From Candidatus Saccharimonadota bacterium (GTDB lineage: Bacteria; Patescibacteriota; Patescibacteriia; 2-12-FULL-60-25): a stretch of 32,000 nt of DNA. Positions 4,604 to 32,000 of this stretch are shown here, one piece after another. Positions within the stretch are counted from its first letter, which is position 1. Each line of letters begins with the position of its first letter. The notes under the pieces are model-generated. The model searched no databases. It saw nothing but the letters and a program-made list of their open reading frames with translations, and was not told where the DNA came from. Where the stretch lies: the NCBI GenBank assembly GCA_023898425.1, contig CP060222.1, forward strand, positions 600,001 through 632,000, in the 5' to 3' direction. The translations under genes and the position numbers were made by a program.

Positions 4604-5366
4604 AAGATTCCTTTACAACATACCTTAAAAGCAGACGGATGGCGAAAATACCGGTAATTGCCGCCGTCAAGAATCCTGAAAGCAGCTTTAGTGGATGTTC
4701 CATTCCGCCTTCAAGAAAAAGCTTTAGCAAACCATAACCGCCTGCCGCCATCATAACAGGGATACTGACAAAAAAAGAAAAGCGCGCCGCTAAAGCACGG
4801 GACATTCCGGATAATAGTCCAGCGGTAATCGTAATTCCTGAACGACTCGTTCCTGGGAGTAGTGCGAGTGGTTGCGCAAAAGCAATACTCAAAACCTGTT
4901 TCCAGCTGATTTTTGCTTCTAGAAGCGAGATGTTTTCTTTTGATGTTGCACGCGAATCTGCGTACCAAAGTAAACTACCCCAAACAACTAAATCAAACGC
5001 GACGAGCTGCACATTTCGAGCATGGGTTTCGAGCCAGCTATTTAACACATAGCCGATCAATAACGCTGGTGTTGCAGCGACAGCGATTTTAACAATTACA
5101 TCTCTCGCATGTAATTGTTCGTTCTTATTTGTAGCAGGATGTAAAGCGTTTTTTGCAAGTCCAATAATATCTGACCAAAAACACCAAAAAATAGCGATCA
5201 ATGTACCGAGATGAAGAACAACATCAAAAGAAAGACCTTGATCCTCCCAACCAAAAAGCACCGGAACAAGGAGCAAATGCCCACTTGATGAAACAGGCAA
5301 AAACTCGGCGAGGCCCTGTACCGCACCCAAAACAACGCCCTGTGCTATTTGCGTAAATAGAATCAT
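4545..5366 (-). CDS. uppP: Undecaprenyl-diphosphate phosphatase UppP/BacA
   Basis: Polytopic membrane protein with LAEFLPVSSSGHL and PGTSRSGITI signature blocks. ATGA start/stop overlap with the upstream ATPase gene (5363-5366). Confidence 0.9.
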   Translation of the reverse strand: MILFTQIAQGVVLGAVQGLAEFLPVSSSGHLLLVPVLFGWEDQGLSFDVVLHLGTLIAIFWCFWSDIIGLAKNALHPATNKNEQLHARDVIVKIAVAATPALLIGYVLNSWLETHARNVQLVAFDLVVWGSLLWYADSRATSKENISLLEAKISWKQVLSIAFAQPLALLPGTSRSGITITAGLLSGMSRALAARFSFFVSIPVMMAAGGYGLLKLFLEGGMEHPLKLLSGFLTAAITGIFAIRLLLRYVVKESYVPFVIYRYALALIILFAA

Positions 5367-7627
5367 AGATCAATGTCATCAAACCTTACTCTATCCCCTT
5401 GCGTAAGCGTATGAGTCTTGGTTGGCTCTACTTCTCGTTTTACTGGATCACTTTTTTGCCCTGCATAAGCTGAGCTAGATGTTTGCTGAGCTTGTTCTTG
5501 TGGTTTTTTATTGCGACTACGACGTCTCTTTTTCTTTGCGTTCATTGCAGGCTTAGTAATCAACTCAGAAATAGCCTCGGTCATACCGGCGCGATCTTCG
5601 AGGGCGCTTTTACTCGTAACAATATCTTCACCTTTTGCTTTTTTAATAGCTGCTAAAAGATCGAGATCTTCATCTTCTTGATCAGCTTTTGGCACGATTT
5701 TTACTTGCGGCGCTGGTTGCTCTGAACGAATAATCCGTGGACGATTTGGTTGAGCTGATGCTGATGAGAACCCAGGTCGAACCTCATCTTCTTTGCGAAC
5801 AATTGCTGCGACTTTTTCGTCTGGCACTGCTGTACGTTTTACACTACGAATCATCCCCTGCTTTGACTTGCGTTCTTCGGCTACGATTGGACGGCAGTCC
5901 GTACAATAGATTGGGCGCGATGTATCAAGTTGAATAGCGAGATTAAAGACCTTGCCACAACGCGAACAGGTATGCGGAAAGTCAGGACGTTGTTTTTTGC
6001 CTTGTGCCTGTGGGATCGAGGCTTTAATTGCCTCTAATCGTTCTGGGCGAATCTTAAGGTATTCTGTTGTATCAACGTCACCAAGGTCTAGTGAACTCTC
6101 TTTTATTGATTGGGCGGGTACAAGCACTGCTCTATCGCTAACATTTGCATCATTAAGCGTTGGCTCTTCTGATGCGGTAACTGGTGGTAAAATAGATGTT
6201 GTATCCCCTGAAGGAATAATATCTGCTTGTTCGCCTTGTTTTTTCTTTTCTTCAAATTCGCGCACTGCTTGCTCTAGGGCAGCAGGGATAGGCGCCGCTT
6301 TAACAGGCGCATCTGGAGCCTGAGTATTTGCCTCCATGCCACTCCACTGAAGAACTTTCGCTTCAATAATATGACGCGGCTCTGCATAGCGCTCACGCGA
6401 AACAGCGATAACCTTTTCTTGATTGTCTGTTTTTGTTGCGATTGGCGCTAATGTATTTGCCGAAAAAGGTGGTGTTGCGACACCATCAACCATGAGCTTG
6501 AGATAGATCTGATATTTGGCCAAATTTACGAGATCTTCTGGCGTAAAGGTAGGTGCAAATTCTGTTTCCATGGCTGTTGCATCAGCGCCACCGACACGCA
6601 TCGCGATAATCGTACCGACGTTACCAAAAATAGCGGCAGCGACTTTTTCGTCGAGCTGCTCAATATACTGATGCGCAACCGTTAAATTTAAATGAAACTT
6701 ACGTGCCTCTGAAAGAATGCTCGCAAAAGACTCGTTCGCAAAATTCTGAAACTCATCTACGTAAAGATAAAAGTCTCGACGATCTTTTTCTGGTACATTT
6801 TGTCGTTCTTGTGCGGCGAGTTGGATTTTTGTCACCAACATCCCACCAAGTAAGCGCATATTATCTTCGCCAATACGGCCTTTGGCGAGGTTTACAATCA
6901 AAATCTTTCCGTCATCCATTACACGACGTAAATTTATTGTAGATTTTACCTGTGCAACAATATTACGAATAATTGATGAAGAAAGAAATTGTCCTACCTT
7001 GTTTTGTACCGGTGCAATTGCTTCTGTTGCGTATTTTTCTGACCATTGCGTAAACTCGGCTACCCAAAATGTTTTTACAATAGGATCTTTGATTTTTGTA
7101 ATAACACGAGCGCGGTAATCTTTATCGACAAGTAAACGGTTAATACCGAGTAATGTAGCACCTGGATAATCCAAAAGAGCGTGAATACAGTTGATAAGAA
7201 TGTATTCCATGCGAGGACTCCAAACATCAGGCCAAATCTTTTTAAAGACGCCCATTAAACCAGAAGCAATAAGATGCTTTTGGTCATCGTTTTCTGTTTC
7301 TAGAATATTAAATCCAATCGGAAAATCAACGTCCGCTGGATTAAAATAGATCACATCGTTAATGCGATGAGCCGGAATATAGTCTAAAAGCTTTTCTGCT
7401 GTATCGCCGTGCGGATCCACATAGCAACAACCATGACCGGCCATAATATCAGCTAAGACAAAGTTCTCTTGAAGCGTTGTCTTACCCATACCGGTTTTAC
7501 CGATAATATAAATATGACGACGTCTGTCGTCGGTTTTTATACCGAATTTGCGTTTTTGGTTACGAAAATTTGTCTCTGCAAAGAGCGTAATTTCGTTTTC
7601 GTGATCGTGGTTATATTCAGGTGCCAT
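5363..7627 (-). CDS. VirD4/TraG/TraD-like (FtsK-HerA superfamily) P-loop ATPase with C-terminal CxxC-x17-CxxC zinc ribbon and K/R-rich tail
   Basis: Walker A is IIGKTGMGKTT (about 7478-7507) and Walker B is FYLYVDEFQNF. No TM helix. CSRCGKVFNLAIQLDTSRPIYCTDC lies at about 5893-5972. The tail contains NAKKKRRRSRNKK. Confidence 0.75.
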   Translation of the reverse strand: MAPEYNHDHENEITLFAETNFRNQKRKFGIKTDDRRRHIYIIGKTGMGKTTLQENFVLADIMAGHGCCYVDPHGDTAEKLLDYIPAHRINDVIYFNPADVDFPIGFNILETENDDQKHLIASGLMGVFKKIWPDVWSPRMEYILINCIHALLDYPGATLLGINRLLVDKDYRARVITKIKDPIVKTFWVAEFTQWSEKYATEAIAPVQNKVGQFLSSSIIRNIVAQVKSTINLRRVMDDGKILIVNLAKGRIGEDNMRLLGGMLVTKIQLAAQERQNVPEKDRRDFYLYVDEFQNFANESFASILSEARKFHLNLTVAHQYIEQLDEKVAAAIFGNVGTIIAMRVGGADATAMETEFAPTFTPEDLVNLAKYQIYLKLMVDGVATPPFSANTLAPIATKTDNQEKVIAVSRERYAEPRHIIEAKVLQWSGMEANTQAPDAPVKAAPIPAALEQAVREFEEKKKQGEQADIIPSGDTTSILPPVTASEEPTLNDANVSDRAVLVPAQSIKESSLDLGDVDTTEYLKIRPERLEAIKASIPQAQGKKQRPDFPHTCSRCGKVFNLAIQLDTSRPIYCTDCRPIVAEERKSKQGMIRSVKRTAVPDEKVAAIVRKEDEVRPGFSSASAQPNRPRIIRSEQPAPQVKIVPKADQEDEDLDLLAAIKKAKGEDIVTSKSALEDRAGMTEAISELITKPAMNAKKKRRRSRNKKPQEQAQQTSSSAYAGQKSDPVKREVEPTKTHTLTQGDRVRFDDIDL

Positions 7628-21396: not shown

Positions 21397-22098
21397 ATGA
21401 TCACAAACATGCGCTCGGCCCTACTTTGGGCTGGTCTCATCTCGACTCTCTTCATCTTCACCCTCGGCTGCGGCGACGGCATCGACCACATCGTGGACGG
21501 CGGCCCCTGCCAGAACACACCGTGGGTGTGCCCGGACGACTCCGGGATGGGTGGAGACAACAGCATCGATGGCGGAGACGTCGGCAACTGCACCCCAGTC
21601 GCCGAAGACACGTTCTCCTGTCTCACCGGAGTCGACAACGACTGCGATCAGCTGACCGGAGTCAACGACACCGACTGCGACGCACCGATGTGTCACCCGG
21701 GTGGTGCCTACGGTCCAGACATCCTTGATGGGATTCACGGGAACACCATGGACTACTGCTTCGACTTCTCGTGGTCGAACGATCTCACCACCGACATGAG
21801 TGGGACGATGGCCCAAGTGCTCAATCGACCGCAGATGTTCACCTGCTGTCGCGTAAGCGACGGTTTCTGCCCTGCAAGGTCGCTGTCTTACAGCAGTCCG
21901 ATTGAGCCAGGCCTAGAGCCCGGCGTAGAGTGGAATGATCAGACGGATTGTCCTCTTGGAGCCGAGGTTGGGCCCAATGGCGAACGCCTACTCGTCAATC
22001 GAGTTTGCGGGGTCTTCACCCGACTTCTCGATAGCGGGCTCATCGAGCGCGGCACCATCTCGGGCGATGCCCGCACGGTCACCGATAATTGTCAGTAA
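21397..22098 (+). CDS. Cys/Asp-rich lipoprotein encoded on a high-G+C islet
   Basis: Signal peptide with lipobox LFIFTLGC. There are 16 Cys after the lipobox and DNDCDQLTGVNDTDCD-type acidic Cys repeats. AAAGGA ribosome-binding site. Third codon positions are G/C-rich, unlike all neighbouring genes. Confidence 0.7.
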   Translation: MITNMRSALLWAGLISTLFIFTLGCGDGIDHIVDGGPCQNTPWVCPDDSGMGGDNSIDGGDVGNCTPVAEDTFSCLTGVDNDCDQLTGVNDTDCDAPMCHPGGAYGPDILDGIHGNTMDYCFDFSWSNDLTTDMSGTMAQVLNRPQMFTCCRVSDGFCPARSLSYSSPIEPGLEPGVEWNDQTDCPLGAEVGPNGERLLVNRVCGVFTRLLDSGLIERGTISGDARTVTDNCQ

Positions 22099-22120
22099 CC
22101 GACTACTGACGTCTATATGC

Positions 22121-22156
22121 AAGCCTCTGAACGCTCTACGTTCGGAGGCTTTTTTC
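22121..22156 (+). terminator. Intrinsic terminator after the lipoprotein gene
   Basis: aagcctctgaacg ctcta cgttcggaggctt followed by ttttt; 13-bp stem including one G-U pair. Confidence 0.8.
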
Positions 22157-22246
22157 ATACTGTTGGTTTTTATCCTACACTTCTCAAAGCCTTCCTTCAC
22201 CCTTCGCTCATACGGAGGAAGAAGGAGAGTTCAGTGCAACTAAAAA

Positions 22247-22270
22247 GAAGCCCTTACGGGCTTCTTTTTT
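22247..22270 (-). terminator. Intrinsic terminator immediately after the last giant-protein ORF
   Basis: gaagccc ttac gggcttc flanked by A5 and T6. It starts directly after the TAA at 22269-22271. Confidence 0.75.
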
Positions 22271-22664
22271 AGTTACCTGGCCTTAATTGTACAGCGCCTG
22301 GGTAAACAACCCACGGTCTAGCGGTTGGAGAGCCTGACACTATAGAACACTCGTTTCTAATAAATGCCGGCCCATCTTCATTTACATCGAGCAGTTCCCT
22401 TGTAAGATTGGTATTTAGTCGAACCTCACCCGTATCACTGACCTCCTCAGGATCTGGATTCGCACCAGCATAACAGCCGCCGTATGGATGCAGGATTTTA
22501 CTTGAAGAAACATCCCCAAGAACGCCATTAGTGTTATCAGCGCGACACTCACCCGTACACCATCCCCAATTATCCATTACCTGTAGACGAGGAGTGAAGT
22601 AACAGGAATTGGTGGTTGTATCGAAACATCCAGAGATATCCGTTACACCTGTTACCGATGCCAT
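22269..22664 (-). CDS. Cys-rich secreted protein gene, fragment 4 of 4 (frame-disrupted)
   Basis: The frame is open upstream to 22732, reading SFKTCTADSGCAAGDTCIAER before the listed Met. It continues fragment 3 after a +1 shift at the A4 run 22718-22721. Confidence 0.6.
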   Translation of the reverse strand: MASVTGVTDISGCFDTTTNSCYFTPRLQVMDNWGWCTGECRADNTNGVLGDVSSSKILHPYGGCYAGANPDPEEVSDTGEVRLNTNLTRELLDVNEDGPAFIRNECSIVSGSPTARPWVVYPGAVQLRPGN

Positions 22665-22701
22665 ACGCTCTGCGATACAAGTATCACCAGCGGCGCAGCC
22701 G

Positions 22702-22974
22702 CTATCTGCGGTACAAGTTTTGAAGGATTACGTGAGCAATATCCCCAGCTGCTATCTGACAAACCGGTAATTCATTAGGCTTTCTAGGCTCTCCAACCGG
22801 TGCCGGTCTCATGCTCTCATTACAGACATAGACATGCTGGAAGTCAAAGTAGTTTGAGTCACAGGCGTCTCGGCTATTGCCAAACATGGTACGCACGATA
22901 CATTTGTCATTTGGATAATCAGCACTCCCACATTCTGCATCGGCTGAACAGGTTTTTGTGGTTGATTTTGACAC
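22702..22974 (-). CDS. Cys-rich secreted protein gene, fragment 3 of 4 (frame-disrupted)
   Basis: Nominal start is GTG. The frame is open upstream (VNGCV...). It joins fragment 2 by a -1 shift at a coding-strand A4 (22966-22969) or A5 (22953-22957). Confidence 0.6.
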   Translation of the reverse strand: MSKSTTKTCSADAECGSADYPNDKCIVRTMFGNSRDACDSNYFDFQHVYVCNESMRPAPVGEPRKPNELPVCQIAAGDIAHVILQNLYRR

Positions 22975-23201
22975 ACACCCGTTGACTTACAAAGACCGGC
23001 ACCGGCAGGGCAGTCGCCGTCAGAATTACAGGTAAGACCAGAGGCGCGAACCTGATCTGAACATTCACTTTGAACGTTACAGTATGGCTTATGGTTTTTG
23101 AGTTTTGTGTCTGCGAGCTTGGTGCTTTGACCATCACCCCAATCAATATAGATACGTTTGAGTGGCATTTGATTGTGTGTTGCCCAAGCATAGAAACGCA
23201 T
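22809..23201 (-). CDS. Cys-rich secreted protein gene, fragment 2 of 4 (frame-disrupted)
   Basis: The frame is open upstream of its Met (AVKHQGPLNAGVGQFVAS-MRFYAWATHNQ...). It joins fragment 1 by a +1 shift at a coding-strand G4 (23238-23241). Confidence 0.6.
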   Translation of the reverse strand: MRFYAWATHNQMPLKRIYIDWGDGQSTKLADTKLKNHKPYCNVQSECSDQVRASGLTCNSDGDCPAGAGLCKSTGVCQNQPQKPVQPMQNVGVLIIQMTNVSCVPCLAIAETPVTQTTLTSSMSMSVMRA

Positions 23202-24294
23202 ACTTGCGACAAACTGTCCGACACCTGCATTGAGTGGCCCCTGATGTTTGACCGCTTAAGTTAAACGCATTAGTTTGTGCAACTTCGCATTGTCCAGGAA
23301 CAGCACAATTGCGTGTATCTGGGGCTGCAACCATTGGAGGTCTAGGCGTGTAATAGGTGATGTAGTTGAAGTTTTGGCTAGCAATAGCAGTAAAGCCCAA
23401 AAAGGATGGTGTGTAATGACCGAGTGTTACATCCGTAGGTAGCGGGACTGATGATCGTGGGTCAAGCGAAACGACTTTACCTGTGCCACCAATCTTATAG
23501 GAGACGAGCCCACAATATTCATCCGCTGGATTTGGACAGAGGTCGAGACGAGGATAATAGCCAATACCATGGGTACAGATATTATTGTCTTTGTCTGGAT
23601 CTGTAGAATTTGGGTCTCCGATAAGCGCATTATCTGGCGGTTTACAGTCTGAACTTGCTGCGCTGCTACCCGCTACGACACAATTAGCTGCCTCTCCTGA
23701 GCCTGAATAGGGGTTATTAAGAACGGCGCAACTATCGCCACCGACTTGGCAAAGGCTACCTTCTTGTAATCCACCCACGCATCTACCAAAATTTGAATCA
23801 CTTTGAGAGATTTGAGCGCATCTTTGGTTGCTTACTATATCTTCAACCGTGACCTGACAATCTGCAACTTCGTTACAAGAGACGTAATTACCATTGAGTG
23901 TACTTGGTCTCCCAGCTACCGGTTCTGCAATCGTGATGCCACTGTCACGAAATGCCTGAGTTAAGAGCGCGGTCCCCTCTGCGTCTCCTAATGTCCATCG
24001 ACAGAATTTTTCATTCACTAAAGGGTCTCTGCGTACACACGATGCAACAGGTCCTGGTATTGTAGCTGGATCTAGTGGGACATTCGCTACAGTCACACGT
24101 GTCACTATTAAACAATCATCTGATCCCCTCGTAGTAGGCTTACTACAATTGATCTGATAAGAACCTGCTCCATCACAGACAAAAGCTTTTTCATCTGACG
24201 CTGCACTCAATGTTAGTTGTTGAAGGCTTGATCCAGCATTTATTTTTGAATATCTACCGTTACCGTCTACCCTCCACTCTGAGAGATGATACAT
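23143..24294 (-). CDS. Cys-rich secreted protein gene, fragment 1 of 4 (true ATG start at 24294)
   Basis: The ATG is preceded in frame by TGA TAA ... TAG ... TAA. 383 aa, of which the last roughly 30 (ATQCRCRTVCRKYAFLCLGNTQS...) look out of frame. Confidence 0.65.
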   Translation of the reverse strand: MYHLSEWRVDGNGRYSKINAGSSLQQLTLSAASDEKAFVCDGAGSYQINCSKPTTRGSDDCLIVTRVTVANVPLDPATIPGPVASCVRRDPLVNEKFCRWTLGDAEGTALLTQAFRDSGITIAEPVAGRPSTLNGNYVSCNEVADCQVTVEDIVSNQRCAQISQSDSNFGRCVGGLQEGSLCQVGGDSCAVLNNPYSGSGEAANCVVAGSSAASSDCKPPDNALIGDPNSTDPDKDNNICTHGIGYYPRLDLCPNPADEYCGLVSYKIGGTGKVVSLDPRSSVPLPTDVTLGHYTPSFLGFTAIASQNFNYITYYTPRPPMVAAPDTRNCAVPGQCEVAQTNAFNLSGQTSGATQCRCRTVCRKYAFLCLGNTQSNATQTYLY

Positions 24295-24318
24295 TTATTT
24301 TTTGCGCTAAGGAGTTTA

Positions 24319-24984
24319 TCAGTCGTGACTGATTTTGCTACAAAAGCCTTTACACTCAAGGTCGTTAGAACAGCTTTGACCAGCGCCTGGCCCAACATAA
24401 CAGACCTTGTTACTTGCACGATCCGATGCTGTAAGCCCATTAGGGTCACATCGTCCATTAACGTCACAGTTATGACTACCTGTATTACAGTTTTTACCCT
24501 TAAATGGACCACTCAAACAGACTTTATCCGTAAGTGACACTTGAGCGCGGTGGAACTGATACACACGATAGACACGTGCAAACATATTGCTCAAGTACGC
24601 GTATTTATCTCGAGGAAACTGTGCATTTGAGTAATACGTTCTTAGACCAGACCGTAAGAAGGTTGGCGTTTTTAAGCCAGTAAAACCTGCCTCTTCGCCA
24701 CCATTTTGAAAGAGTGGCTCGATACCAGCAACGCCTGTATTGAGCGCGCTCGAGAATGGGGCATTCGTTTCTGAATAGGTAGCACCTGTAGCTGGATCAC
24801 GATAACCGGATTGTTTCCAAACACGATCTGTAAAGGCGGCATCAGAATTAGTATCTTTACTTTTTACTTCTGCTAACTCTCGGCAAATATCTGATGTGCC
24901 TACTTCTACATTCATATACATGTAGCGGTGATCGCCACCAGATTTACCGGCGCACGCAGAGGTCCAAAACCAACAAATGTCCAT
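24319..24984 (-). CDS. Giant Cys-rich surface protein, fragment 6 of 6 (C-terminal, frame-disrupted)
   Basis: Ends with the Cys knot-like GKNCNTGSHNCDVNGRCDPNG...CYVGPGAGQSCSNDLECKGFC, then TGA. It joins fragment 5 by a -1 shift, probably at a coding-strand T4 (24966-24969). Confidence 0.6.
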   Translation of the reverse strand: MDICWFWTSACAGKSGGDHRYMYMNVEVGTSDICRELAEVKSKDTNSDAAFTDRVWKQSGYRDPATGATYSETNAPFSSALNTGVAGIEPLFQNGGEEAGFTGLKTPTFLRSGLRTYYSNAQFPRDKYAYLSNMFARVYRVYQFHRAQVSLTDKVCLSGPFKGKNCNTGSHNCDVNGRCDPNGLTASDRASNKVCYVGPGAGQSCSNDLECKGFCSKISHD

Positions 24985-25277
24985 GTTCCATCAGGTTCAC
25001 CATTATTAATAATATTGCCTGTGACTGGATCTTTTGCTTGAGGTGATTGGAATACAGCACGAACCGTAAACCAAGGAGCTGAGCTATTTGTACAAGTATC
25101 ATCACTCGACAATGGATACTTGCGGATAAAGTCTAGTGATAGACCTTCGTTAAACGCATTAAACCCTGCTTTGCTATTATTTTGATAGTTTAGATCCCAT
25201 GATTTAAAGGCACATAAGCTATTTTCAAACTTTTCAATCGTTACTGGACCTATAGCATCTCTTTCATCACCACCCAC
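24912..25277 (-). CDS. Giant Cys-rich surface protein, fragment 5 of 6 (frame-disrupted)
   Basis: Nominal start is GTG. The frame is open upstream to the TAA at 25338-25340 (KLPTNLRENVYNYLYTTYDNV...). It is reached by a -1 shift at a coding-strand A5 (25335-25339) or A4 (25312-25315). Confidence 0.6.
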   Translation of the reverse strand: MGGDERDAIGPVTIEKFENSLCAFKSWDLNYQNNSKAGFNAFNEGLSLDFIRKYPLSSDDTCTNSSAPWFTVRAVFQSPQAKDPVTGNIINNGEPDGTWTFVGFGPLRAPVNLVAITATCI

Positions 25278-25915
25278 ATTATCATAAGTTGTATAAAGAT
25301 AATTGTAGACGTTTTCTCGTAAATTTGTTGGTAGTTTTTACCGCTAATTCTCTCTGGCTGTCTTTCTGCAAGACAATCTGAGAATTTCCATTGGTCTGTA
25401 ACAGAATCTCTTATCTCAACTTCATTTGCTCTCGTTAAGAAAGGATCAAAACGAGAATTCACATCGGTTCTCCATATGGATTCGCCAGCACTTAGAGAAG
25501 ACTGATCCTTATAATCAACTGATGGCACGTTATTGGCCCACTCGGCATTATAACCACAAGCCAAACGACCCACCTCACCGTTTACCGTAGGTTCAATCTT
25601 AAAGTACGAAATCGTATTATCTGTTATAGATGTCCTCATCGTATCAAGTGTTGGCGTATAACCAAGATCTCTCATTAATAGAGGTGTATGGATACGATAG
25701 AACGTTTCACGATAACCATCTCCCGCATCAACAAGACGCAATGATTCTGGTGATGTACCGCGTTCTTCTGGCACGGTGTAAGCGTCACTATAATCACATA
25801 ACTCATAGGATGGGTAGTCGAGCGTGCCATCAATAGAGATATATGGCGTTTTCTTTTTTTGCGACATTACGATAACCGCCTCTGCCTTTATCAACCCAGA
25901 TAGGGTCAAGATCAA
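25250..25915 (-). CDS. Giant Cys-rich surface protein, fragment 4 of 6 (frame-disrupted)
   Basis: Nominal start is TTG. The first roughly 17 residues are out-of-frame read of fragment 3. The plausible protein starts at ...KKKTPYISIDGTLDYPSYELC, after a +1 shift in a coding-strand A7 (25854-25860). Confidence 0.6.
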   Translation of the reverse strand: MILTLSGLIKAEAVIVMSQKKKTPYISIDGTLDYPSYELCDYSDAYTVPEERGTSPESLRLVDAGDGYRETFYRIHTPLLMRDLGYTPTLDTMRTSITDNTISYFKIEPTVNGEVGRLACGYNAEWANNVPSVDYKDQSSLSAGESIWRTDVNSRFDPFLTRANEVEIRDSVTDQWKFSDCLAERQPERISGKNYQQIYEKTSTIIFIQLMIMWVVMKEML

Positions 25916-26198
25916 TACGTTGCATCTTACCTACATAACTCGGCTTATCATCACCATCAAATTGATTCGCAAAGTGTACATCAGCTTCATTTTTATCACG
26001 ACTATCGTTACCACGACAATCACCAATATTTGCTTCGGTAAGCCCCACAGAAAATACACCAGTACCAGGAAAGAAGAAGTCCGTAATACCTGCCAACAAT
26101 CCTCCTGAGCATTCATTAGCAAACTTATCACGATAGGTCATCGGATCATTAGCTACAGCCCCATCGTTTTCATACCTTCTAAGGTGCTGAAAGGTCAA
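25830..26198 (-). CDS. Giant Cys-rich surface protein, fragment 3 of 6 (frame-disrupted)
   Basis: A nominal TTG start overlaps the TGA of fragment 2 (TTGA). The frame is open far upstream. It is reached by a -1 shift at a coding-strand A6 (26214-26219). Confidence 0.6.
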   Translation of the reverse strand: MTFQHLRRYENDGAVANDPMTYRDKFANECSGGLLAGITDFFFPGTGVFSVGLTEANIGDCRGNDSRDKNEADVHFANQFDGDDKPSYVGKMQRIDLDPIWVDKGRGGYRNVAKKENAIYLY

Positions 26199-27151
26199 AA
26201 TGGCTTTTGTTGGTTTTTTGCTGCAGAAGTACAGTAATATTGCCCAGAGTTTTGCGGAGGCACATATCCTGCCGTTGGCTGATAATGGAACGGATCCTTG
26301 TCACCAAAGAGAATTGGGTTTGGATTCCAGGTAAGACAAGGACGATTTGATTGATCTGTGCCAGCAAACTGCGTCGAATCACGTTCTAAACATTGACCAA
26401 AAACGCCCTTAATGATTTCGAGTTTTGAATAGGCAACGCATTGACTATTCGCTCCGCAGCTAAAGGCTGATTGCGCAGAAACAATACGGTTTGTAATATC
26501 TGACGCTCCCTCACCTTCGCTCACTGAGCCTTCGTTAAGACTGCTTGGGATACAAGCTTGTCCATCACGTTGACCTCCGCTACAAACGCCAGGAGGAACA
26601 TTTTGTGCACCAGGACCAAAGAAGCTTGATTTTGAACTATAGGTTACACGTTTATACGTACAACTACAGTCTTCACCGTATTCGCAAATATTGGCGTTTT
26701 CAAAACCAGACGCAATGAGCTTTGGCTGTGGTGGTTTATTCGAAAAATCCCACTCTTCTACATAGCTCGTGCCAAATGGCGAATCTGCTTCTGGATTAGA
26801 GCGACATTCAGCTGGAGGATAAGCGGTAGAAAGATTAGCATCTGACTTTGGATCATCTAATCTGAATTTATCAGCCACTTTTTCAAAGTTTGTAGAATCA
26901 TTTGTCGATTGAACAGGAAGATAGCAGTAGAACGTTGCGTTTATCTGACATTCACTCTTGTTATAAAAACCTGTAATCGTTCTACCTTCTTTTGTTGTGT
27001 ATCCACAAAGACTTAATAGCGGATTTGCAATCCCAATAGCGTCACCATCCAAAGGACGTGCAAATGAAATTGATGATGATGACGGCGCAACACAGCGGGT
27101 ACCTGCGGCATTTGGGCCGGTGCCTGCGACCATCTTCACCTTAGCTGCCAA
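26195..27151 (-). CDS. Giant Cys-rich surface protein, fragment 2 of 6 (frame-disrupted)
   Basis: Nominal start is TTG. The frame is open upstream to the TGA at 27203-27205 (TTAFYPDSANRFGLDYRL-AAKVKMVAGTG...). It is reached by a +1 shift somewhere in 27144-27202. Confidence 0.6.
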   Translation of the reverse strand: MAAKVKMVAGTGPNAAGTRCVAPSSSSISFARPLDGDAIGIANPLLSLCGYTTKEGRTITGFYNKSECQINATFYCYLPVQSTNDSTNFEKVADKFRLDDPKSDANLSTAYPPAECRSNPEADSPFGTSYVEEWDFSNKPPQPKLIASGFENANICEYGEDCSCTYKRVTYSSKSSFFGPGAQNVPPGVCSGGQRDGQACIPSSLNEGSVSEGEGASDITNRIVSAQSAFSCGANSQCVAYSKLEIIKGVFGQCLERDSTQFAGTDQSNRPCLTWNPNPILFGDKDPFHYQPTAGYVPPQNSGQYYCTSAAKNQQKPF

Positions 27152-30100
27152 ACGATAATCTAAACCAAAACGATTTGCTGAGTCTGGATAGAATGCGGTT
27201 GTTCAATCCGTCCTTACCTACTCGCAAGGTCTTCGTATCAGAAATCTGAAAGGCGTTAGGCAAGGCATAACCTGAATAATCTTTTGCACCGAGGCCGACT
27301 TCACGTGATGCGTATACGGCTGAATCAAAGAAGACGCCTTCGCTTAAGACCTGCTCTTTTGCTGTATCAGCTCGATCAACGTAATTTGCACAGAAGATAT
27401 CTCCTGGTTTACCGGTAGATTTATCACAAAGAGCAAGGTCAATACAGACATCCTTATACGAACGTGTTGCTTGATCAAAGACCGTTTCTGAACTACGGCA
27501 ACCAAGCCACTGCGCACAATCACGATCAAGATTTACCTTTACGACTAAGTTTGCATCATTTTTACCCTGATCAGCTGCTGGTAACTGCTGACAGAATTCA
27601 TTCGTGCTATTTGTTACACAATCGATAGGTGATGTTGGGTTATAACCACTTCTTTCGTAGGCGAGAGCCGTTGCTTTTGCATTATAACGAAGCGTATTGT
27701 CTGCAAGATCGCGCAATAAGACACAGCCATTTGCTGGGTCGATTTTGCCACCACAGGAAGACTTATCAATATTATCATCATTGATAAAGAAATAAGGCTT
27801 ACCAGCGGTGTGATCTGGATCAGTAAGGTCGTTTACATCACGGAACTCTGTACAGCTATTCTCTGATGCAGGGCACATTGCCGTCCAACCAGAATAGGCA
27901 GGATCCCCCGATTGAGCCATGCCAAAGACACTGCCATTTTCTAAAATCTCTGGGTAACAAGGCATGTTTGTATTTTGCACAAACCAACCACTGTAATTAC
28001 CTTCTGGCAACCCAGCTAACACCGAAGTTGCGGATGCATTAGGGAAGTCGCTTGAAGACAAACGGATCCCCTCTTTGTATTCACACGCTTTTTCTTGTGG
28101 AGCTCTGAAATATTCTTTGCCTGCCTGGTAGTTAAATTCTTCACAGAACTCTTCTGAAGGCTTACAGAGCGCCTCACCATATTTTGTAATATCGTCTTTG
28201 AGGTAGACCGTTGAAACGGTATCAACCGTATTACGATCCGGTGAGTATTTTGGCTTACCAAAAGCACGACACGAAGCGTTTTCTGGCTTACAAAGTTTGG
28301 TTGTATCGTAAACCAAGTACAACATGCGATCAGCAGGACGTACGGTGGTATTACTTGGGTATGTTGGCGCAGGTGTAACGCCGTTCTCGATCTGAACAGG
28401 TGTTTGATCTGCTTGAACAAACGTTTGTGAATAGGCTGAGTCGCTATTGCGTGTATCTACAAAGGCACGACAACCGATTGCCTCTTGCTTACATAAGCGC
28501 GTAAAGCGATGGGCATAAACCGTGTTATTAAAGGTGTCTTTATATTCACGACAACCCAACATCGCTTGTGGTTCTGGTGCACCTGCATAGGACGTATCAC
28601 ACTGAATTGGGGTATTCCATGATTGATTTACGGCATAGACCGTATCTTGCACGCGTTCAACACGAACTTCATCAATAAAGACAGAGCGTCCTGCAGCGAT
28701 CTGCGCGCTAAATTCTAACTGAGCAATTGTTGCATCTGGACCCTGGTAAAGACCTAGGCTATAGCGTTGCCAGTCAGACCCTACTGAAGTGGTACCGATC
28801 TCTTTTGTTGGGTTTGATCCTGCGAGTGCCGTTAACCGAAGTACAGACGGAACATCTCCAGGTGACTTAGCCCAGAAGCTCACGCGATAGTAAGCGTCTT
28901 TTTCGTTCGCATAATTTGCTACGGTTGTATTTGCACTTGCAGTAAGACGAAGGGACTTATCGCCTACGAGCACAGATTCATCAGAACTCTCACCAACAGA
29001 GAAGCTCCCGATACCTGTTTTAAAGGATTCTGTTAAGACTGTTTGTACGCTTCCTGCCGATACACCCTTAAAGGCGCGACAACCTGCAACCGTTGATTGA
29101 CAGCTGCGACTTTCGCCGAGATAAGCATTGTAAAGACACTCCCCTGTTTGAGGGTAAAAATCTCCACCTGTTTTACGACAGTCATCCGCTTGACCTGAGC
29201 GTGAGATACGCAAAGCTACACATTGATCCGTAGATAAAACCGTTTGAGAATAATAACGATAGAAGGTATTACCTGCTTGATCGTAGAATTGACGACAGTC
29301 TGGATCAACACCCGTTCTCCAAAGATCTTCGTTACATGATGTTGGTTCTTTTACCATGCCATCGGTACCGCGTTTCGCTAAAATATCAGGACCTACAGCA
29401 GTCTCGTTAGGCAAGATATCTGCACCTGCAATCAAACTAAAAGTACGAAGTTGGTAACCAGCTTCAGCAGAACCCTCCCATACATAGAAAGATTTTGTTC
29501 GAAGTGGGTCTGGTTTTTGACAAGCACGTAGATAGCTAAATGATTGAGCTGTTTCTCCGCCTTGTGCTGCTTGCTCAACATTTGTAAATGTCTCACAACC
29601 AACATCTTCTTGTTTACAGCTATTTGCTGTTGAAGGGATGAAATAACTTGGCGCGATGTCTGCTTCATCGCTAAAGTCAATATTCACATCTTTTACAAGA
29701 TCAAAAGCTGAAGCTTGTTTGCGGAATTCTGCATACCCAACACATTGTTGAGGACAAAGATCATTTTGCGAAAGAATCGCCGGGATCTTATCTGTACTAT
29801 TTGTTTCTGAATATTCTTGACAGCCCGCATCTACTTGCTTACAAACACGAGCAAATTTCTTACATTGCTCAGGATCAGAATCAAGCCCTTGGCAATTAAG
29901 CTCTTCTGGCGCGACCTTCATATGCGTAACCGGCAAAGATCTGTTTACTCCGTCAACAAAAGCCGTGGCATATTCGTTTTCTTCAAACTGTACGGCATCT
30001 ACAAGAGCATTTGAACCTGTGAGAGCAACTCTTGTCGCCGTAGCACCTGGTGGGATAACAAAGGAACATTCAAAACGTTGCCAATTTGTACCAAAGCTCT

Positions 30101-32000
30101 GTGTTGAGATTGCTGGCTCTCCTGTAGCAACACAGCCCGAAGAACGGTAAATAGCCGTTAAATCAGAAGCTGCAGCATTTGTACTCGCTTCCATTTGGAA
30201 GCTCGCTGCACCAGCGTCAAGAGCACGAACATTTGCAGAAATAGTAACGATATTACCAGGTAGCGTTGCGACCGTCTGCGAAAGCGGTTGACTGGTAGCC
30301 TCATAAGCACGCGTTCCAACGAGAGCGGAGTCACCGTCCGCGGCTACTGGTTCTGAGTATTCATATCCAGACTGCGCACTTGTCCAACCGTCGAGCGCCG
30401 TTGGACTGCTTTCAGATGATTCAAATGAAGCATTTTCTAAGTAATTCAATGCCGTACCACCCACCTCTGCTGCAAGCAATTTTGTACAACCGTCATCGTT
30501 TGCTGCACACGCGGTAAGCGCTTTGTCAGCGTAGAATTTTGGACCATTTTCGTTCCAGGTGCCATCTTGGTTGAGTTCGCTGAAGTACGCAGAACAACCG
30601 ACATTGTCGGCACTACAGACACTGCTTTCAATCGTGTTACGTAGATAAGAAACATTTTGGCCTGTACGCGTTGTGTAAGAACGGCAACTCGCATTACGTT
30701 CTAAACATTGTGTTGAGTTAAAGCGATACGTTGTTTTTTCTGCAACACAATATCCATAACCACCTACACATTGACCGTTTTCGTCACGCTGTAAACATGT
30801 TTGGATATCACGGCATTCTTCACGACGTTCAGGAGCGGTACGCGATGAGATAAGTGACTCACCAAAACCCGTTAGCTTACATTGTTGAGGAAAAGAGGTT
30901 AGCACCCAGTTTTTATCAATAAGTTTACACCAAGGAAATTGAGCATCTCTCTCGCCTTGAGCGTTACATTGCGAAAAACCATCAACCACTTCTTTTAACG
31001 TAACGCAACCCGCTGGATTCTGACAGCGAATGATGTTCTCTTGCGAATTTGCTGCAAATTCAAAACCAATCGGAATAATACGCATGGCACGTAATTTTGC
31101 GAGATTACCTGCACAATAGCCATAGGTATAACATTGTGAATCTTGATTACGTTTTGCATCCGTAACAGGGATGAGTTGCCAAGAACCCTTAAGGAGATCT
31201 TGTTCGAGTGCTTTTTCGATCGTTAAATTACCCTCACCATCTTGACCGGTTACCGTTTGTGCCAATGATTCATCCATCGCACAGTTCCAAATATTTCTAC
31301 CCGAATCAGGACATGAGTAAAGATCAGATAATACCTCTACATCACTTGTTCGTAATAAACTAAAATCACGCAACTCAATATTGGCTAAACGATTATCTGT
31401 GGCATTTTTTACAAAGGCTGCATCCGGTGATGAAACACCGCCTTTTTTCTTATTGTCTTTAAATGCATCAACAAGGCCTTTGATGAGGCCTTTTTGCATT
31501 ACTTTGTTTAGGACTTTTGAAGAGAGTGTATTCAAAAAGACAGAAGCCGTATAAATACCGAGCTGAGCGGCACCAGCTTTATAAGCATTTCCAATAATAC
31601 CCTGCTGTTTTGTTACCTCACCTGTTTTTGGATCTTTAACAACCGCTTGATCAAAAGTGCTTTGTATCACAGCTGCTGGCGTGCGCACATTACCACTCAC
31701 AATATCCTCAAGGTTTTGAAAAGCTCCAGTTTCTTTGCGGTTTTCACGCGCTGTGTCTACGTCTTGCTCAATTAATGTATAAGACCTGCCAAGAATACGT
31801 AAGCTCGCACCAAGATCACTACCGTTATAAGAGATACCTTCGGAGATATAGTCTAATACCTCGGTATTAGAAAGCGTTGTATAAAGATTGCGGTAATTAC
31901 TAATGACCTGTTTAAAGTCACAACGAGGTTGCGTATTAAAATTACCCTGTCCTAAGCCAGGAAACTGACCGCCAATCGTTAACTGCAACTGCAATAACTG
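27141..32000 (-). CDS. Giant Cys-rich surface protein, fragment 1 of 6 (N-terminus beyond the right edge; more than 1617 codons in one frame)
   Basis: The ORF is open to the window edge; the listed Met is a TTG artefact. It has at least 10 copies of a C-x6-C-x2-[FY] motif and two jelly-roll/CBM-like modules (about 29970-30450 and 28650-29040). The last roughly 15 residues (RILSRLSKSFWFRLSFGS) look out of frame. Confidence 0.8.
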   Translation of the reverse strand, partial: QLLQLQLTIGGQFPGLGQGNFNTQPRCDFKQVISNYRNLYTTLSNTEVLDYISEGISYNGSDLGASLRILGRSYTLIEQDVDTARENRKETGAFQNLEDIVSGNVRTPAAVIQSTFDQAVVKDPKTGEVTKQQGIIGNAYKAGAAQLGIYTASVFLNTLSSKVLNKVMQKGLIKGLVDAFKDNKKKGGVSSPDAAFVKNATDNRLANIELRDFSLLRTSDVEVLSDLYSCPDSGRNIWNCAMDESLAQTVTGQDGEGNLTIEKALEQDLLKGSWQLIPVTDAKRNQDSQCYTYGYCAGNLAKLRAMRIIPIGFEFAANSQENIIRCQNPAGCVTLKEVVDGFSQCNAQGERDAQFPWCKLIDKNWVLTSFPQQCKLTGFGESLISSRTAPERREECRDIQTCLQRDENGQCVGGYGYCVAEKTTYRFNSTQCLERNASCRSYTTRTGQNVSYLRNTIESSVCSADNVGCSAYFSELNQDGTWNENGPKFYADKALTACAANDDGCTKLLAAEVGGTALNYLENASFESSESSPTALDGWTSAQSGYEYSEPVAADGDSALVGTRAYEATSQPLSQTVATLPGNIVTISANVRALDAGAASFQMEASTNAAASDLTAIYRSSGCVATGEPAISTQSFGTNWQRFECSFVIPPGATATRVALTGSNALVDAVQFEENEYATAFVDGVNRSLPVTHMKVAPEELNCQGLDSDPEQCKKFARVCKQVDAGCQEYSETNSTDKIPAILSQNDLCPQQCVGYAEFRKQASAFDLVKDVNIDFSDEADIAPSYFIPSTANSCKQEDVGCETFTNVEQAAQGGETAQSFSYLRACQKPDPLRTKSFYVWEGSAEAGYQLRTFSLIAGADILPNETAVGPDILAKRGTDGMVKEPTSCNEDLWRTGVDPDCRQFYDQAGNTFYRYYSQTVLSTDQCVALRISRSGQADDCRKTGGDFYPQTGECLYNAYLGESRSCQSTVAGCRAFKGVSAGSVQTVLTESFKTGIGSFSVGESSDESVLVGDKSLRLTASANTTVANYANEKDAYYRVSFWAKSPGDVPSVLRLTALAGSNPTKEIGTTSVGSDWQRYSLGLYQGPDATIAQLEFSAQIAAGRSVFIDEVRVERVQDTVYAVNQSWNTPIQCDTSYAGAPEPQAMLGCREYKDTFNNTVYAHRFTRLCKQEAIGCRAFVDTRNSDSAYSQTFVQADQTPVQIENGVTPAPTYPSNTTVRPADRMLYLVYDTTKLCKPENASCRAFGKPKYSPDRNTVDTVSTVYLKDDITKYGEALCKPSEEFCEEFNYQAGKEYFRAPQEKACEYKEGIRLSSSDFPNASATSVLAGLPEGNYSGWFVQNTNMPCYPEILENGSVFGMAQSGDPAYSGWTAMCPASENSCTEFRDVNDLTDPDHTAGKPYFFINDDNIDKSSCGGKIDPANGCVLLRDLADNTLRYNAKATALAYERSGYNPTSPIDCVTNSTNEFCQQLPAADQGKNDANLVVKVNLDRDCAQWLGCRSSETVFDQATRSYKDVCIDLALCDKSTGKPGDIFCANYVDRADTAKEQVLSEGVFFDSAVYASREVGLGAKDYSGYALPNAFQISDTKTLRVGKDGLNNRILSRLSKSFWFRLSFGS

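What the first reader, a model, noticed from the sequence alone, without database searches (positions are those of the whole stretch)
22269..32000. Ten consecutive ORFs are really two giant Cys-rich protein genes, broken by eight 1-nt frame changes with no in-frame stop
**How the ORFs join**
At every junction the next reading frame is already open upstream of the previous frame's stop. The nominal TTG, GTG or ATG N-termini, and the last 15-30 residues of each ORF, read as out-of-frame junk, while the spliced sequence reads smoothly.

**Break points** (plus-strand coordinates, run given on the coding strand, shift needed)

| Region | Run on coding strand | Shift |
|---|---|---|
| 27144-27202 | only run of 4 or more is T4 at 27167-27170 | +1 |
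| 26214-26219 | A6 | -1 |
| 25854-25860 | A7 | +1 |
| 25335-25339 or 25312-25315 | A5 or A4 | -1 |
| 24966-24969 | T4 | -1 |
| 23238-23241 | G4 | +1 |
| 22966-22969 or 22953-22957 | A4 or A5 | -1 |
| 22718-22721 | A4 | +1 |

**Reconstructed genes**
- Gene 1 covers more than 7.6 kb (32000 to 24319), over 2560 codons, with its N-terminus outside the window.
- Gene 2 covers 24294 to 22269, about 675 codons.

**Why it is unusual**
All eight breaks fall in the 3' 4.5 kb. The 5' 4.85 kb of gene 1 and the other 22 kb of the window show no detectable frame breaks.

**Competing explanations (inference)**
- (a) Homopolymer indel errors or strain-mixture consensus, localised to a hard-to-assemble region.
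- (b) Very recent decay after a first truncating shift, with an indel-biased mutation spectrum.
- (c) Slipped-strand phase variation or transcriptional/translational slippage used to vary a surface protein.

Runs of 4-7 nt are short for efficient slippage, so (a) or (b) should be assumed until reads are inspected.
Basis: partly seen in the sequence, partly recalled or inferred. Interest (0 to 1): 0.75.

Follow-up and report, generated by a model that had tools for sequence, protein, structure and literature searches.

The report
Giant gene split by assembly errors
The ten short reading frames are one 3,370-codon surface-protein gene of a tiny wastewater bacterium. It is chopped up by eleven small insertion/deletion mistakes that almost certainly arose during long-read genome assembly, so this is a data-quality problem, not new biology.

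Summary

**What is there**
- Window 32000-22269 (minus strand) is ONE gene, not two.
- It carries 11 frame-breaking events (ten of 1 nt, one of 2 nt), not 8.
- Undoing the 11 events (12 nt) gives a single ORF of 3,243 codons. It is 95.7% identical, in one alignment, to an intact 3,384-aa protein (P0037) in a same-species short-read MAG.

**Why the breaks look like errors**
- Over 3.1 kb (25965-22852) the window has zero substitutions against that relative, yet 7 single-base indels.
- At the 10 sites where an exact-flank check was possible, every independent assembly covering the site (1-6 per site) has the in-frame length.
- The other 27 kb has about 100 substitutions and no coding frameshift.
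- The substitutions that do occur in the gene are overwhelmingly synonymous.
- The source is a single 1.03-Mb contig. It is probably HK-STAS-PATE-2, from a Nanopore+Illumina Unicycler workflow.
- Short-read assemblies of this species all break inside this strain-variable gene.

**Verdict**
These are uncorrected long-read indel errors in a patch that short reads could not assemble or polish. Real decay, phase variation and recoding are each contradicted. Interest is low.

The parts
22269..32000 (-). One giant Cys-rich (4.0% Cys) secreted or surface protein gene. The window holds 3,243 codons plus the stop once the frame is corrected. About 125 to 143 further N-terminal codons lie beyond 32000.
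   Evidence: After 11 edits it reads as a single ORF, 95.7% identical to P0037 residues 144-3384 in one HSP. P0035, the N-terminal fragment annotated in the source genome, is 1,745 aa. Homologues of 2,455-3,384 aa occur in Patescibacteria. No Pfam or NCBIfam family matches apart from a sub-threshold CBM_4_9 hit.
27202..27204 (-). Event 1: one extra base (A or G) in TTGAACA, not a homopolymer. It lies exactly where a window-specific allele meets an L011-like allele.
   Evidence: Four-way alignment. Deleting 27203 restores ...GKDGLTTAFYPDS.... No same-allele reference covers this site.
26214..26219 (-). Event 2: A6 in the window, A7 in intact relatives (1-nt deletion).
   Evidence: L013 and L015 both have A7.
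25854..25860 (-). Event 3: A7 in the window, A6 in intact relatives (1-nt insertion).
   Evidence: L013 and L015 both have A6.
25335..25339 (-). Event 4: A5 in the window, A6 in the intact relative (1-nt deletion).
   Evidence: L013 has A6. P0037 reads ISGKKLPTNLRENVY.
24966..24969 (-). Event 5: T4 in the window, T5 in intact relatives (1-nt deletion).
   Evidence: L013 and L014 have T5.
24342..24345 (-).
   Evidence: L013 and L014 have T3.
24281..24281 (-).
   Evidence: L013 and L014 have CC.
24292..24321 (-). False 'gene 1 stop / gene 2 ATG start'. Four stops in 13 codons arise because the 64 nt between events 6 and 7 are read out of frame.
   Evidence: Window frame 0 here reads KSVTTDKLLSAKNKCIIS, identical to P0037 and P0034.
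23242..23242 (-). Event 8: an extra A before a G4 run. The G4 itself is the same length in intact relatives.
   Evidence: L001, L003, L004, L013 and L014 have ATCGGGGCC where the window has ATCAGGGGCC. L012 is also one base shorter.
22953..22957 (-). Event 9: A5 in the window, A6 in intact relatives (1-nt deletion).
   Evidence: Six assemblies have A6: L001, L003, L004, L012, L013 and L014.
22743..22744 (-).
   Evidence: L003, L012, L013 and L014 all lack it. Removing it restores ...CQIAAGYCSRNPSK....
22718..22721 (-). Event 11: one base missing in or next to an A4 run.
   Evidence: All six other assemblies are one base longer here.
26880..27383 (-). Hypervariable segment 1 of the gene. It is a mosaic: 27383-27206 is window-specific, and 27203 to about 26880 is identical to L011 but 20-25% different from L013 and L015.
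   Evidence: 74 of 120 differences from L013 are at third codon positions.
21450..22830 (.). Hypervariable segment 2. It covers the C-terminal ~190 codons of the giant gene, the intergenic spacer and most of the convergent small gene. The window allele here resembles L003, then L012, and not L013.

Best explanation
The ten ORFs are fragments of one intact gene for a giant (about 3,370 aa) Cys-rich extracellular protein of a Patescibacteria (ABY1-class) bacterium from activated sludge. The eleven frame breaks are not in the organism.

**Proposed origin of the errors**
- They are residual insertion/deletion errors of an error-prone long-read consensus.
- The 3' half of this gene differs between co-existing strains, so short-read assembly graphs break there.
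- In a hybrid (Unicycler-type) assembly such a gap is bridged with Nanopore consensus sequence.
- Short-read polishing then fails, because reads from several alleles map poorly.
- This leaves a patch of about 4.5-6 kb with an indel density more than 100-fold above the rest of the genome, while the rest of the contig keeps Illumina accuracy.

**Shown versus inferred**
- Shown: one gene; 11 events; an indel-only difference from near-identical intact alleles; localisation; strain variability and contig breaks at this locus.
- Inferred: that the patch derives from Nanopore reads, and that the source is HK-STAS-PATE-2.
For: 1. **Indel-only difference.** Against L013 (GCA_020429715.1, intact 3,384-aa ORF), window 25965-22852 (3,113 nt) has 0 substitutions and 7 single-base indels. 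The same-species comparisons elsewhere show 98 substitutions (34 in the gene's 5' part against L013, 64 in the rest of the window against L001) and no coding frameshift. Fisher p = 4e-11.
2. **Other assemblies are in frame.** At the 10 sites where an exact-flank check was possible, every other assembly covering the site has the in-frame length: 1-6 per site, from 4 NCBI MAGs and 2 ENA assemblies. Site 25339 rests on L013 alone. For site 27202-27204 the evidence is a multiple alignment with diverged alleles.
3. **Clean restoration.** Reversing the 11 events gives one stop-free ORF of 3,243 codons, 100% identical to P0037 over most 100-aa windows.
4. **No sign of decay.** There are no nonsense substitutions. 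Real substitutions are synonymous or third-position (31 of 34 in the 5' part, 23 of 27 in the core), so selection is not relaxed.
5. **Error spectrum.** Six events are length changes in runs of three or more bases, and a seventh sits in or next to an A4 run. Six are deletions and five insertions, and four are not in runs. This is the residual homopolymer-length error type described for long-read assemblies (abstracts of PMC8812927 and PMC9262707, shown).
6. **Source assembly.** The window proteins are USN52094-USN52103 (H6759_03605-03650) on a single 1,032,900-bp contig. Short-read contigs of the same species are 3-49 kb. Liu et al. 2021 (PMC8518188) list HK-STAS-PATE-2 as 1 contig, 1,032,800 bp, GC 0.444. 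It comes from a Unicycler-based Nanopore+Illumina workflow at the Shatin plant. The closest contigs here (WANG18_SAMN0838...) probably come from that group's time series, judging by the sample label.
7. **Local excess.** That workflow's mock indel rate is 0.2-1.8 per 100 kb. Here the rate is 11 per 4.5 kb.
8. **Assembly breaks at this locus.** Short-read contigs L003/L004, L011, L012, L014 and L015 all start or end inside this gene.
Against: - No reads were inspected, so the errors are inferred, not seen.
- The link to HK-STAS-PATE-2 is by size (100 bp off), GC, contig number and sampling site, not by accession.
- Four events (27202-27204, 24281, 23242, 22743-22744) are not in classical homopolymers, and one is 2 nt.
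- For events 1, 10 and 11 no identical-allele reference exists, so their exact nature is less certain.
- The window also carries allele segments seen in no other contig (27383-27206). The strain itself is therefore distinct and could in principle differ at the indel sites too.
Confidence: 0.88

Rival explanations
1. Real, very recent pseudogenisation. The dominant strain at the time of long-read sampling lost this gene through a first frameshift, then accumulated ten more indels neutrally.
For: The breaks are in the deposited sequence. The gene is large and strain-variable, so its loss might be tolerated. Many Patescibacteria are thought to lack mismatch repair, which would raise homopolymer indel rates (own knowledge, not tested here).
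Against: - There are 0 substitutions against 7 indels in 3.1 kb. Even in mismatch-repair-deficient bacteria base substitutions outnumber indels several-fold (own knowledge of mutation-accumulation studies).
- No nonsense codon is present, and no indel is larger than 2 nt.
- 152 homopolymers of five or more bases elsewhere in the window show no length change against relatives.
- Substitutions in the gene remain synonymous-biased.
- Every other assembly compared is intact.
Confidence: 0.06
2. Chimeric consensus of several strains, independent of sequencing chemistry. The assembler switched between co-existing alleles and introduced indels at or near the switch points.
For: The window is a mosaic of alleles seen separately in L011, L013, L003 and L012. 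Event 1 sits exactly at an allele switch. Events 10 and 11 sit in another switch zone.
Against: Seven events lie inside a 3.1-kb stretch that is otherwise base-for-base identical to a single allele (L013), with no switch nearby. The relatives are themselves mosaics of each other, so the mosaic can be real recombination. This rival overlaps the best explanation rather than excluding it.
Confidence: 0.04
3. Functional frame changes: slipped-strand phase variation, transcriptional slippage or programmed ribosomal frameshifting that modulates a surface protein.
For: Several sites are A or T runs. The product is probably a surface protein with strain-variable ends. One site (GCAAAAAAAG, 25854-25860) superficially resembles an A-rich slippery sequence.
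Against: - Eleven sites would each need efficient recoding, in both directions and including a 2-nt event.
- The runs are 1-7 nt and four sites are not runs.
- The frameshifts are not conserved. Orthologues at 35-63% identity (P0001, P0002, P0004) and same-species strains are all in frame at these positions.
- No tract-length polymorphism exists among the other assemblies.
Confidence: 0.02

Closest known systems
Residual homopolymer-length indel errors in Nanopore or hybrid bacterial assemblies that fragment ORFs (abstracts of PMC8812927 Polypolish, PMC9262707 R10.4 evaluation and PMC12007338 Kastor, shown)
   Same: - Single-base indels, mostly in A or T runs.
- They split one gene into consecutive overlapping ORFs with no substitutions.
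- They persist where short-read alignment is unreliable.
- The fragments were annotated as separate hypothetical proteins (USN52095-USN52103).
   Different: The unreliable region here is not a repeat. It is a strain-hypervariable gene in a metagenome. Some events are outside homopolymers, and one is 2 nt.
Phase-variable contingency genes with homopolymeric tracts (own knowledge, e.g. Neisseria, Haemophilus, Campylobacter)
   Same: A surface-protein gene with frame changes at mononucleotide runs.
   Different: Contingency loci have one or two long tracts (usually 7 nt or more) whose length varies between isolates. Here there are 11 sites, the tracts are 1-7 nt, and all other assemblies agree on one in-frame length.
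Poly(A) transcriptional slippage rescuing frameshifted genes in endosymbionts (own knowledge: Tamas et al. 2008, Buchnera/Blochmannia)
   Same: A reduced-genome bacterium with frameshifts at A runs and no nonsense codons.
   Different: Those tracts are typically 9 A or longer and the frameshifts are conserved features of the genome. Here the runs are short, mixed A/T/none, and absent from sister strains.
Giant genes of ultra-small or predatory uncultivated bacteria (bioRxiv 10.1101/2023.11.21.568195; homologues P0013-P0028 of 2,455-2,828 aa)
   Same: A protein of more than 3,000 aa and unknown function from an uncultivated lineage. Its recovery is hampered by assembly fragmentation.
   Different: This concerns the underlying gene, not the frameshifts. 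At 3,384 aa it is modest compared with the proteins highlighted in that work (its abstract compares them with the ~40,000-aa titin), and no catalytic domain was detected.

Membership tests
Long-read assembly indel artefact | Differences from near-identical independent sequences are indels only, with no excess of substitutions | tested here: met
   0 substitutions and 7 indels in 3,113 nt against L013. Elsewhere there are 98 substitutions and 0 coding frameshifts. Fisher p = 4e-11.
Long-read assembly indel artefact | Independent (short-read) assemblies of the same allele carry the in-frame length at every site | tested here: met
   For 10 of 11 sites an exact-flank match gave 1-6 assemblies per site, all in frame. 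Site 25339 rests on L013 alone. Site 27202-27204 is supported by alignment to diverged alleles only.
Long-read assembly indel artefact | Events biased to homopolymer runs | tested here: inconclusive
   Six of 11 are length changes in runs of three or more bases, and a seventh sits in or next to an A4 run. Four are not in runs: CC->C, +A, +A/G and +GA.
Long-read assembly indel artefact | The source assembly used error-prone long reads | tested here: inconclusive
   The source is a single 1,032,900-bp contig. HK-STAS-PATE-2 is 1 contig of 1,032,800 bp, GC 0.444, from a Unicycler Nanopore+Illumina workflow at the same plant. No accession-level link was obtained.
Long-read assembly indel artefact | Raw short reads contradict the consensus at the sites | not testable with these tools
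   No read data are available.
Decaying pseudogene | Nonsense substitutions, larger deletions and relaxed selection accompany the frameshifts | tested here: not met
   There are no nonsense codons after frame correction, and no indel exceeds 2 nt among the frame-breaking events. 23 of 27 core substitutions and 33 of 34 5'-part substitutions are synonymous.
Phase-variable contingency locus | A long simple-sequence tract whose length is polymorphic among strains | tested here: not met
   The longest tract is A7. At each site every other assembly found shares a single in-frame length.
Programmed frameshifting or transcriptional slippage | The frameshift site is conserved in orthologues and a slippery motif is present | tested here: not met
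   Orthologues P0001, P0002 and P0004 and the same-species P0037, P0034 and P0036 are continuous ORFs across the sites. Downstream stimulatory structures were not examined.
Patescibacteria giant Cys-rich protein family (uncharacterised) | Full-length homology to proteins of 2,400-3,400 aa in Patescibacteria | tested here: met
   24 homologues, with E from 0 to 6e-81 and lengths up to 3,384 aa. No Pfam or NCBIfam model matches. CBM_4_9 scores 21.1 bits, below the 25.9 cut-off.

The most novel reading that the evidence does not exclude
The frameshifts are real in the strain that dominated the long-read sample. A giant surface protein would have been switched off, or be expressed only through polymerase or ribosome slippage at many short runs, by an indel-only mutational process acting on a hypervariable locus of a mismatch-repair-poor ultra-small bacterium.
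Probability: 0.04. Interest if true: 0.55.

Novelty: not a real feature. Interest (0 to 1): 0.1.

Why it matters
**Data quality**
- The deposited genome annotates nine fragments of one gene as separate hypothetical proteins (H6759_03610-03650, USN52095-USN52103). These fragments have entered protein databases and clusters. The P0005 cluster mixes fragments of 122 and 383 aa with the 3,384-aa protein.
- Anyone counting pseudogenes, gene numbers or 'giant genes' in complete CPR genomes from hybrid assemblies will be misled at strain-variable loci like this one.
- The case gives a practical signature for flagging such patches without reads: indel-only differences from near-identical contigs, at a place where short-read contigs break.

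**Biology**
- What remains is ordinary for the group. It is a 3,384-aa secreted Cys-rich protein whose C-terminal part, together with the adjacent small gene, is hypervariable between co-existing strains.

Tried and rejected
**Searches that found nothing**
- Exact-protein look-ups of the window's fragments in the contig index found nothing. The source contig itself could not be fetched, and no second assembly with the same frameshifts was found.
- Pattern scans tolerant of run length found no match in GTDB representative genomes or JGI metagenomes. No extra independent copies came from there.
- tRNA and Rfam scans of the window found nothing.
- Pfam and NCBIfam gave no family for the giant protein or the small neighbour.

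**Search limitation**
- The first homologue search used the broken region. It missed the near-identical intact protein because that protein is hidden in a 90% cluster whose representative (P0005) covers only the N-terminal part. It was recovered through the listing of cluster members.

**Ideas considered and rejected**
- An alternative genetic code: the 5' 1,620 codons are open under code 11, and the breaks are frame changes, not stop codons.
- Diversity-generating retroelement mutagenesis: that gives A-specific substitutions in a short variable region, not indels over 4.5 kb.

**Self-corrections**
- The aligner's indel pair at 27355/27345 is an artefact of clustered substitutions (GAG CAG GTC TTA against GAA CCA GTG CTT), not two more frameshifts.
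- My first placement of event 1 at 27206 produced a TGA stop. It was corrected to 27202-27204.
Full report
**Observation**

On the minus strand, ten ORFs tile 32000-22269:
- 27141-31994
- 26195-27151
- 25830-26198
- 25250-25915
- 24912-25277
- 24319-24984
- 23143-24294
- 22809-23201
- 22702-22974
- 22269-22664

At every junction the next frame is already open upstream of the previous stop.

**Homologues read through the junctions**

I searched with a hand-spliced C-terminal part and found four Patescibacteria proteins. tblastn of these against the window gave the following:
- P0001 (1,315 aa, partial, 63% identical) runs as one continuous protein through frames -2/-1/-2/-1/-3/-1.
- It also runs straight across the supposed gene 1/gene 2 boundary.
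- At that boundary the window's frame 2 has four stops in 13 codons, but frame 0 reads KSVTTDKLLSAKNKCIIS.

**Same-species relatives**

- The window's NusA protein is encoded identically on 18 public contigs. Ten of these were fetched. Their housekeeping flanks are 99.0-99.8% identical to the window, with no coding frameshifts.
- One of them, GCA_020429715.1 contig JAGQLA010000005.1, carries a single 3,384-aa gene at this position.
- That protein (P0037) was hidden inside the 90% cluster of P0005. I recovered it with the listing of cluster members and fetched its DNA as L013.
- P0037 reads ECKGFVAKSVTTDKLLSAKNKCIISPEWRVDGNG across the false boundary.

**Anatomy of the breaks**

Nucleotide alignment of the window to L013, L011, L012, L014, L015 and L003 defines eleven events on the coding strand:

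| Site (window coordinates) | Window | Intact relatives | Change in window |
|---|---|---|---|
| 27202-27204 | TTGAACA | one base fewer | +1 |
| 26214-26219 | A6 | A7 | -1 |
| 25854-25860 | A7 | A6 | +1 |
| 25335-25339 | A5 | A6 | -1 |
| 24966-24969 | T4 | T5 | -1 |
| 24342-24345 | T4 | T3 | +1 |
| 24281 | C | CC | -1 |
| 23242 | extra A before an unchanged G4 | no A | +1 |
| 22953-22957 | A5 | A6 | -1 |
| 22743-22744 | extra GA | no GA | +2 |
| 22718-22721 | A4 | one base more | -1 |

- The net change is zero.
- Reversing all eleven gives one ORF of 3,243 codons plus a stop. It is 95.7% identical to P0037 residues 144-3384 in a single alignment.
- Identity is 100% over most 100-residue windows.
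- With the roughly 125 codons upstream of the window (P0035, 1,745 aa), the gene is about 3,370 codons.

**Why the breaks are artefacts**

1. Between 25965 and 22852 (3,113 nt) the window has no substitution against L013, yet seven single-base indels. The rest of the comparison has about 98 substitutions and no coding frameshift (Fisher p = 4e-11).
2. At the 10 sites where an exact-flank check was possible, every other assembly covering the site has the in-frame length (1-6 per site, from four NCBI MAGs and two ENA assemblies). Site 25339 rests on L013 alone. For site 27202-27204 the evidence is alignment to diverged alleles. The window is the only outlier.
3. There are no nonsense substitutions. 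The substitutions that do exist are third-position or synonymous: 31 of 34 at third positions in the 5' part, and 23 of 27 in the core. This is the opposite of relaxed selection.
4. In the affected 4.5 kb, 4 of the 18 runs of five or more bases have a wrong length. None of the 152 such runs elsewhere in the window shows a length change against relatives.

**Why the errors are localised**

- The 3' half of the gene is strain-hypervariable and mosaic.
  - 27383-27206 is window-specific.
  - 27203 to about 26880 equals L011.
  - About 26880-22830 equals L013, apart from two short patches of third-position differences (26285-26396 and 25965-25995).
  - 22830-22770 equals L003.
  - 22770 onward resembles L012.
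- Short-read contigs of this species start or end inside the gene: L003/L004, L011, L012, L014 and L015.
- The window's proteins are USN52094-USN52103 (H6759_03605-03650) of a 'Candidatus Nomurabacteria bacterium' MAG consisting of one 1,032,900-bp contig.
- Liu et al. 2021 (PMC8518188) describe a Unicycler-based Nanopore+Illumina workflow on Shatin activated sludge. They list HK-STAS-PATE-2 as one contig of 1,032,800 bp, GC 0.444, class ABY1.
- The nearest relatives found here carry the label WANG18_SAMN0838..., which probably marks that group's Shatin time series (inferred from the label and BioProject PRJNA432264, not checked).
- The attribution is probable, not proven, because the size differs by 100 bp.
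- Unicycler bridges gaps in the short-read graph with long-read consensus (own knowledge of the tool). Short-read polishers leave homopolymer errors where read alignment is unreliable (abstract of PMC8812927, shown).
- The workflow's mock-community indel rate was 0.2-1.8 per 100 kb. This patch has 11 events in 4.5 kb.

**Rivals**

- Real pseudogenisation fails on four counts: the indel-only spectrum, the absence of nonsense codons, the intact homopolymers elsewhere, and the intact sister strains.
- Phase variation and recoding fail on the number of sites, their mixed directions, the short or absent runs, and the absence of the frameshifts in all orthologues.
- A purely chimeric strain consensus could contribute to events 1, 10 and 11, which lie at allele switches. 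It cannot explain the seven events inside a stretch otherwise identical to one allele.

**The gene itself**

- P0037 starts with a signal-peptide-like hydrophobic N-terminus (MKNHFHKKRALSALIVAMTFWIAIGPMAAEVVNAQG).
- It is 4% Cys and has no Pfam or NCBIfam family, apart from a sub-threshold CBM_4_9 match at residues 1131-1242.
- Homologues of 2,455-2,828 aa occur across Patescibacteria.
- Its function is unknown. By inference it is a secreted or surface protein with strain-variable C-terminal modules.

**Verdict**

The gene model should be one gene with 11 errors. Interest is low.

Noticed in passing
window 21397-22098 (+), with L013:12260-12883 and L003:1363-2001: The small convergent gene just downstream of the giant gene is a 233-aa Cys/Asp-rich protein with a hydrophobic N-terminus (USN52094.1). 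It is only about 30% identical in protein sequence between strains whose housekeeping flanks are 99.5% identical. Together with the last ~190 codons of the giant gene it forms a hypervariable island (about 21450-22830).
   Followed up: partly
window 27383-26880, 26285-26396, 25965-25995, 22830-22400: The giant gene's 3' half is a mosaic of alleles that occur separately in other assemblies (L011, L013, L003, L012). Short patches consist almost purely of third-position differences. This looks like recombination between co-existing strains, or partly a chimeric consensus.
   Followed up: partly
source-genome annotation (H6759_03610-03650; USN52095-USN52103) and the P0005 cluster: GenBank annotates the fragments as separate hypothetical proteins. 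They sit in the same 90% protein cluster as the intact 3,384-aa protein, and the cluster representative covers only the N-terminal part. The first homologue search therefore missed the intact relative.
   Followed up: yes
records behind L001/L013, L011/L012, L015, L014 and the window: Taxonomic labels conflict. The window's genome is named 'Candidatus Nomurabacteria bacterium', while contigs 99.5% identical to it are 'Candidatus Magasanikbacteria bacterium'. One 3-kb fragment of the same gene is binned in a 'Halioglobus sp.' MAG (GCA_020443355.1), which is probably a mis-binning. The probable source is GTDB class ABY1, order SG8-24.
   Followed up: partly
window 5415-5422, inside the ORF 5363-7627 (-): There is a 12-nt in-frame length difference between strains in the TrwB/TraG-like coupling-protein gene (754 aa here, 758 aa in L002). 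This is the only coding indel outside the giant gene, and it preserves the frame.
   Followed up: no
L011:2916-3629 and L013:1283-1996, just beyond window coordinate 32000: Immediately upstream of the giant gene and on the same strand, relatives encode a 237-aa protein with a faint TSP3_bac (thrombospondin type 3 repeat) hit, ending 4 nt before the giant gene's start. It may be co-transcribed with the giant gene.
   Followed up: no
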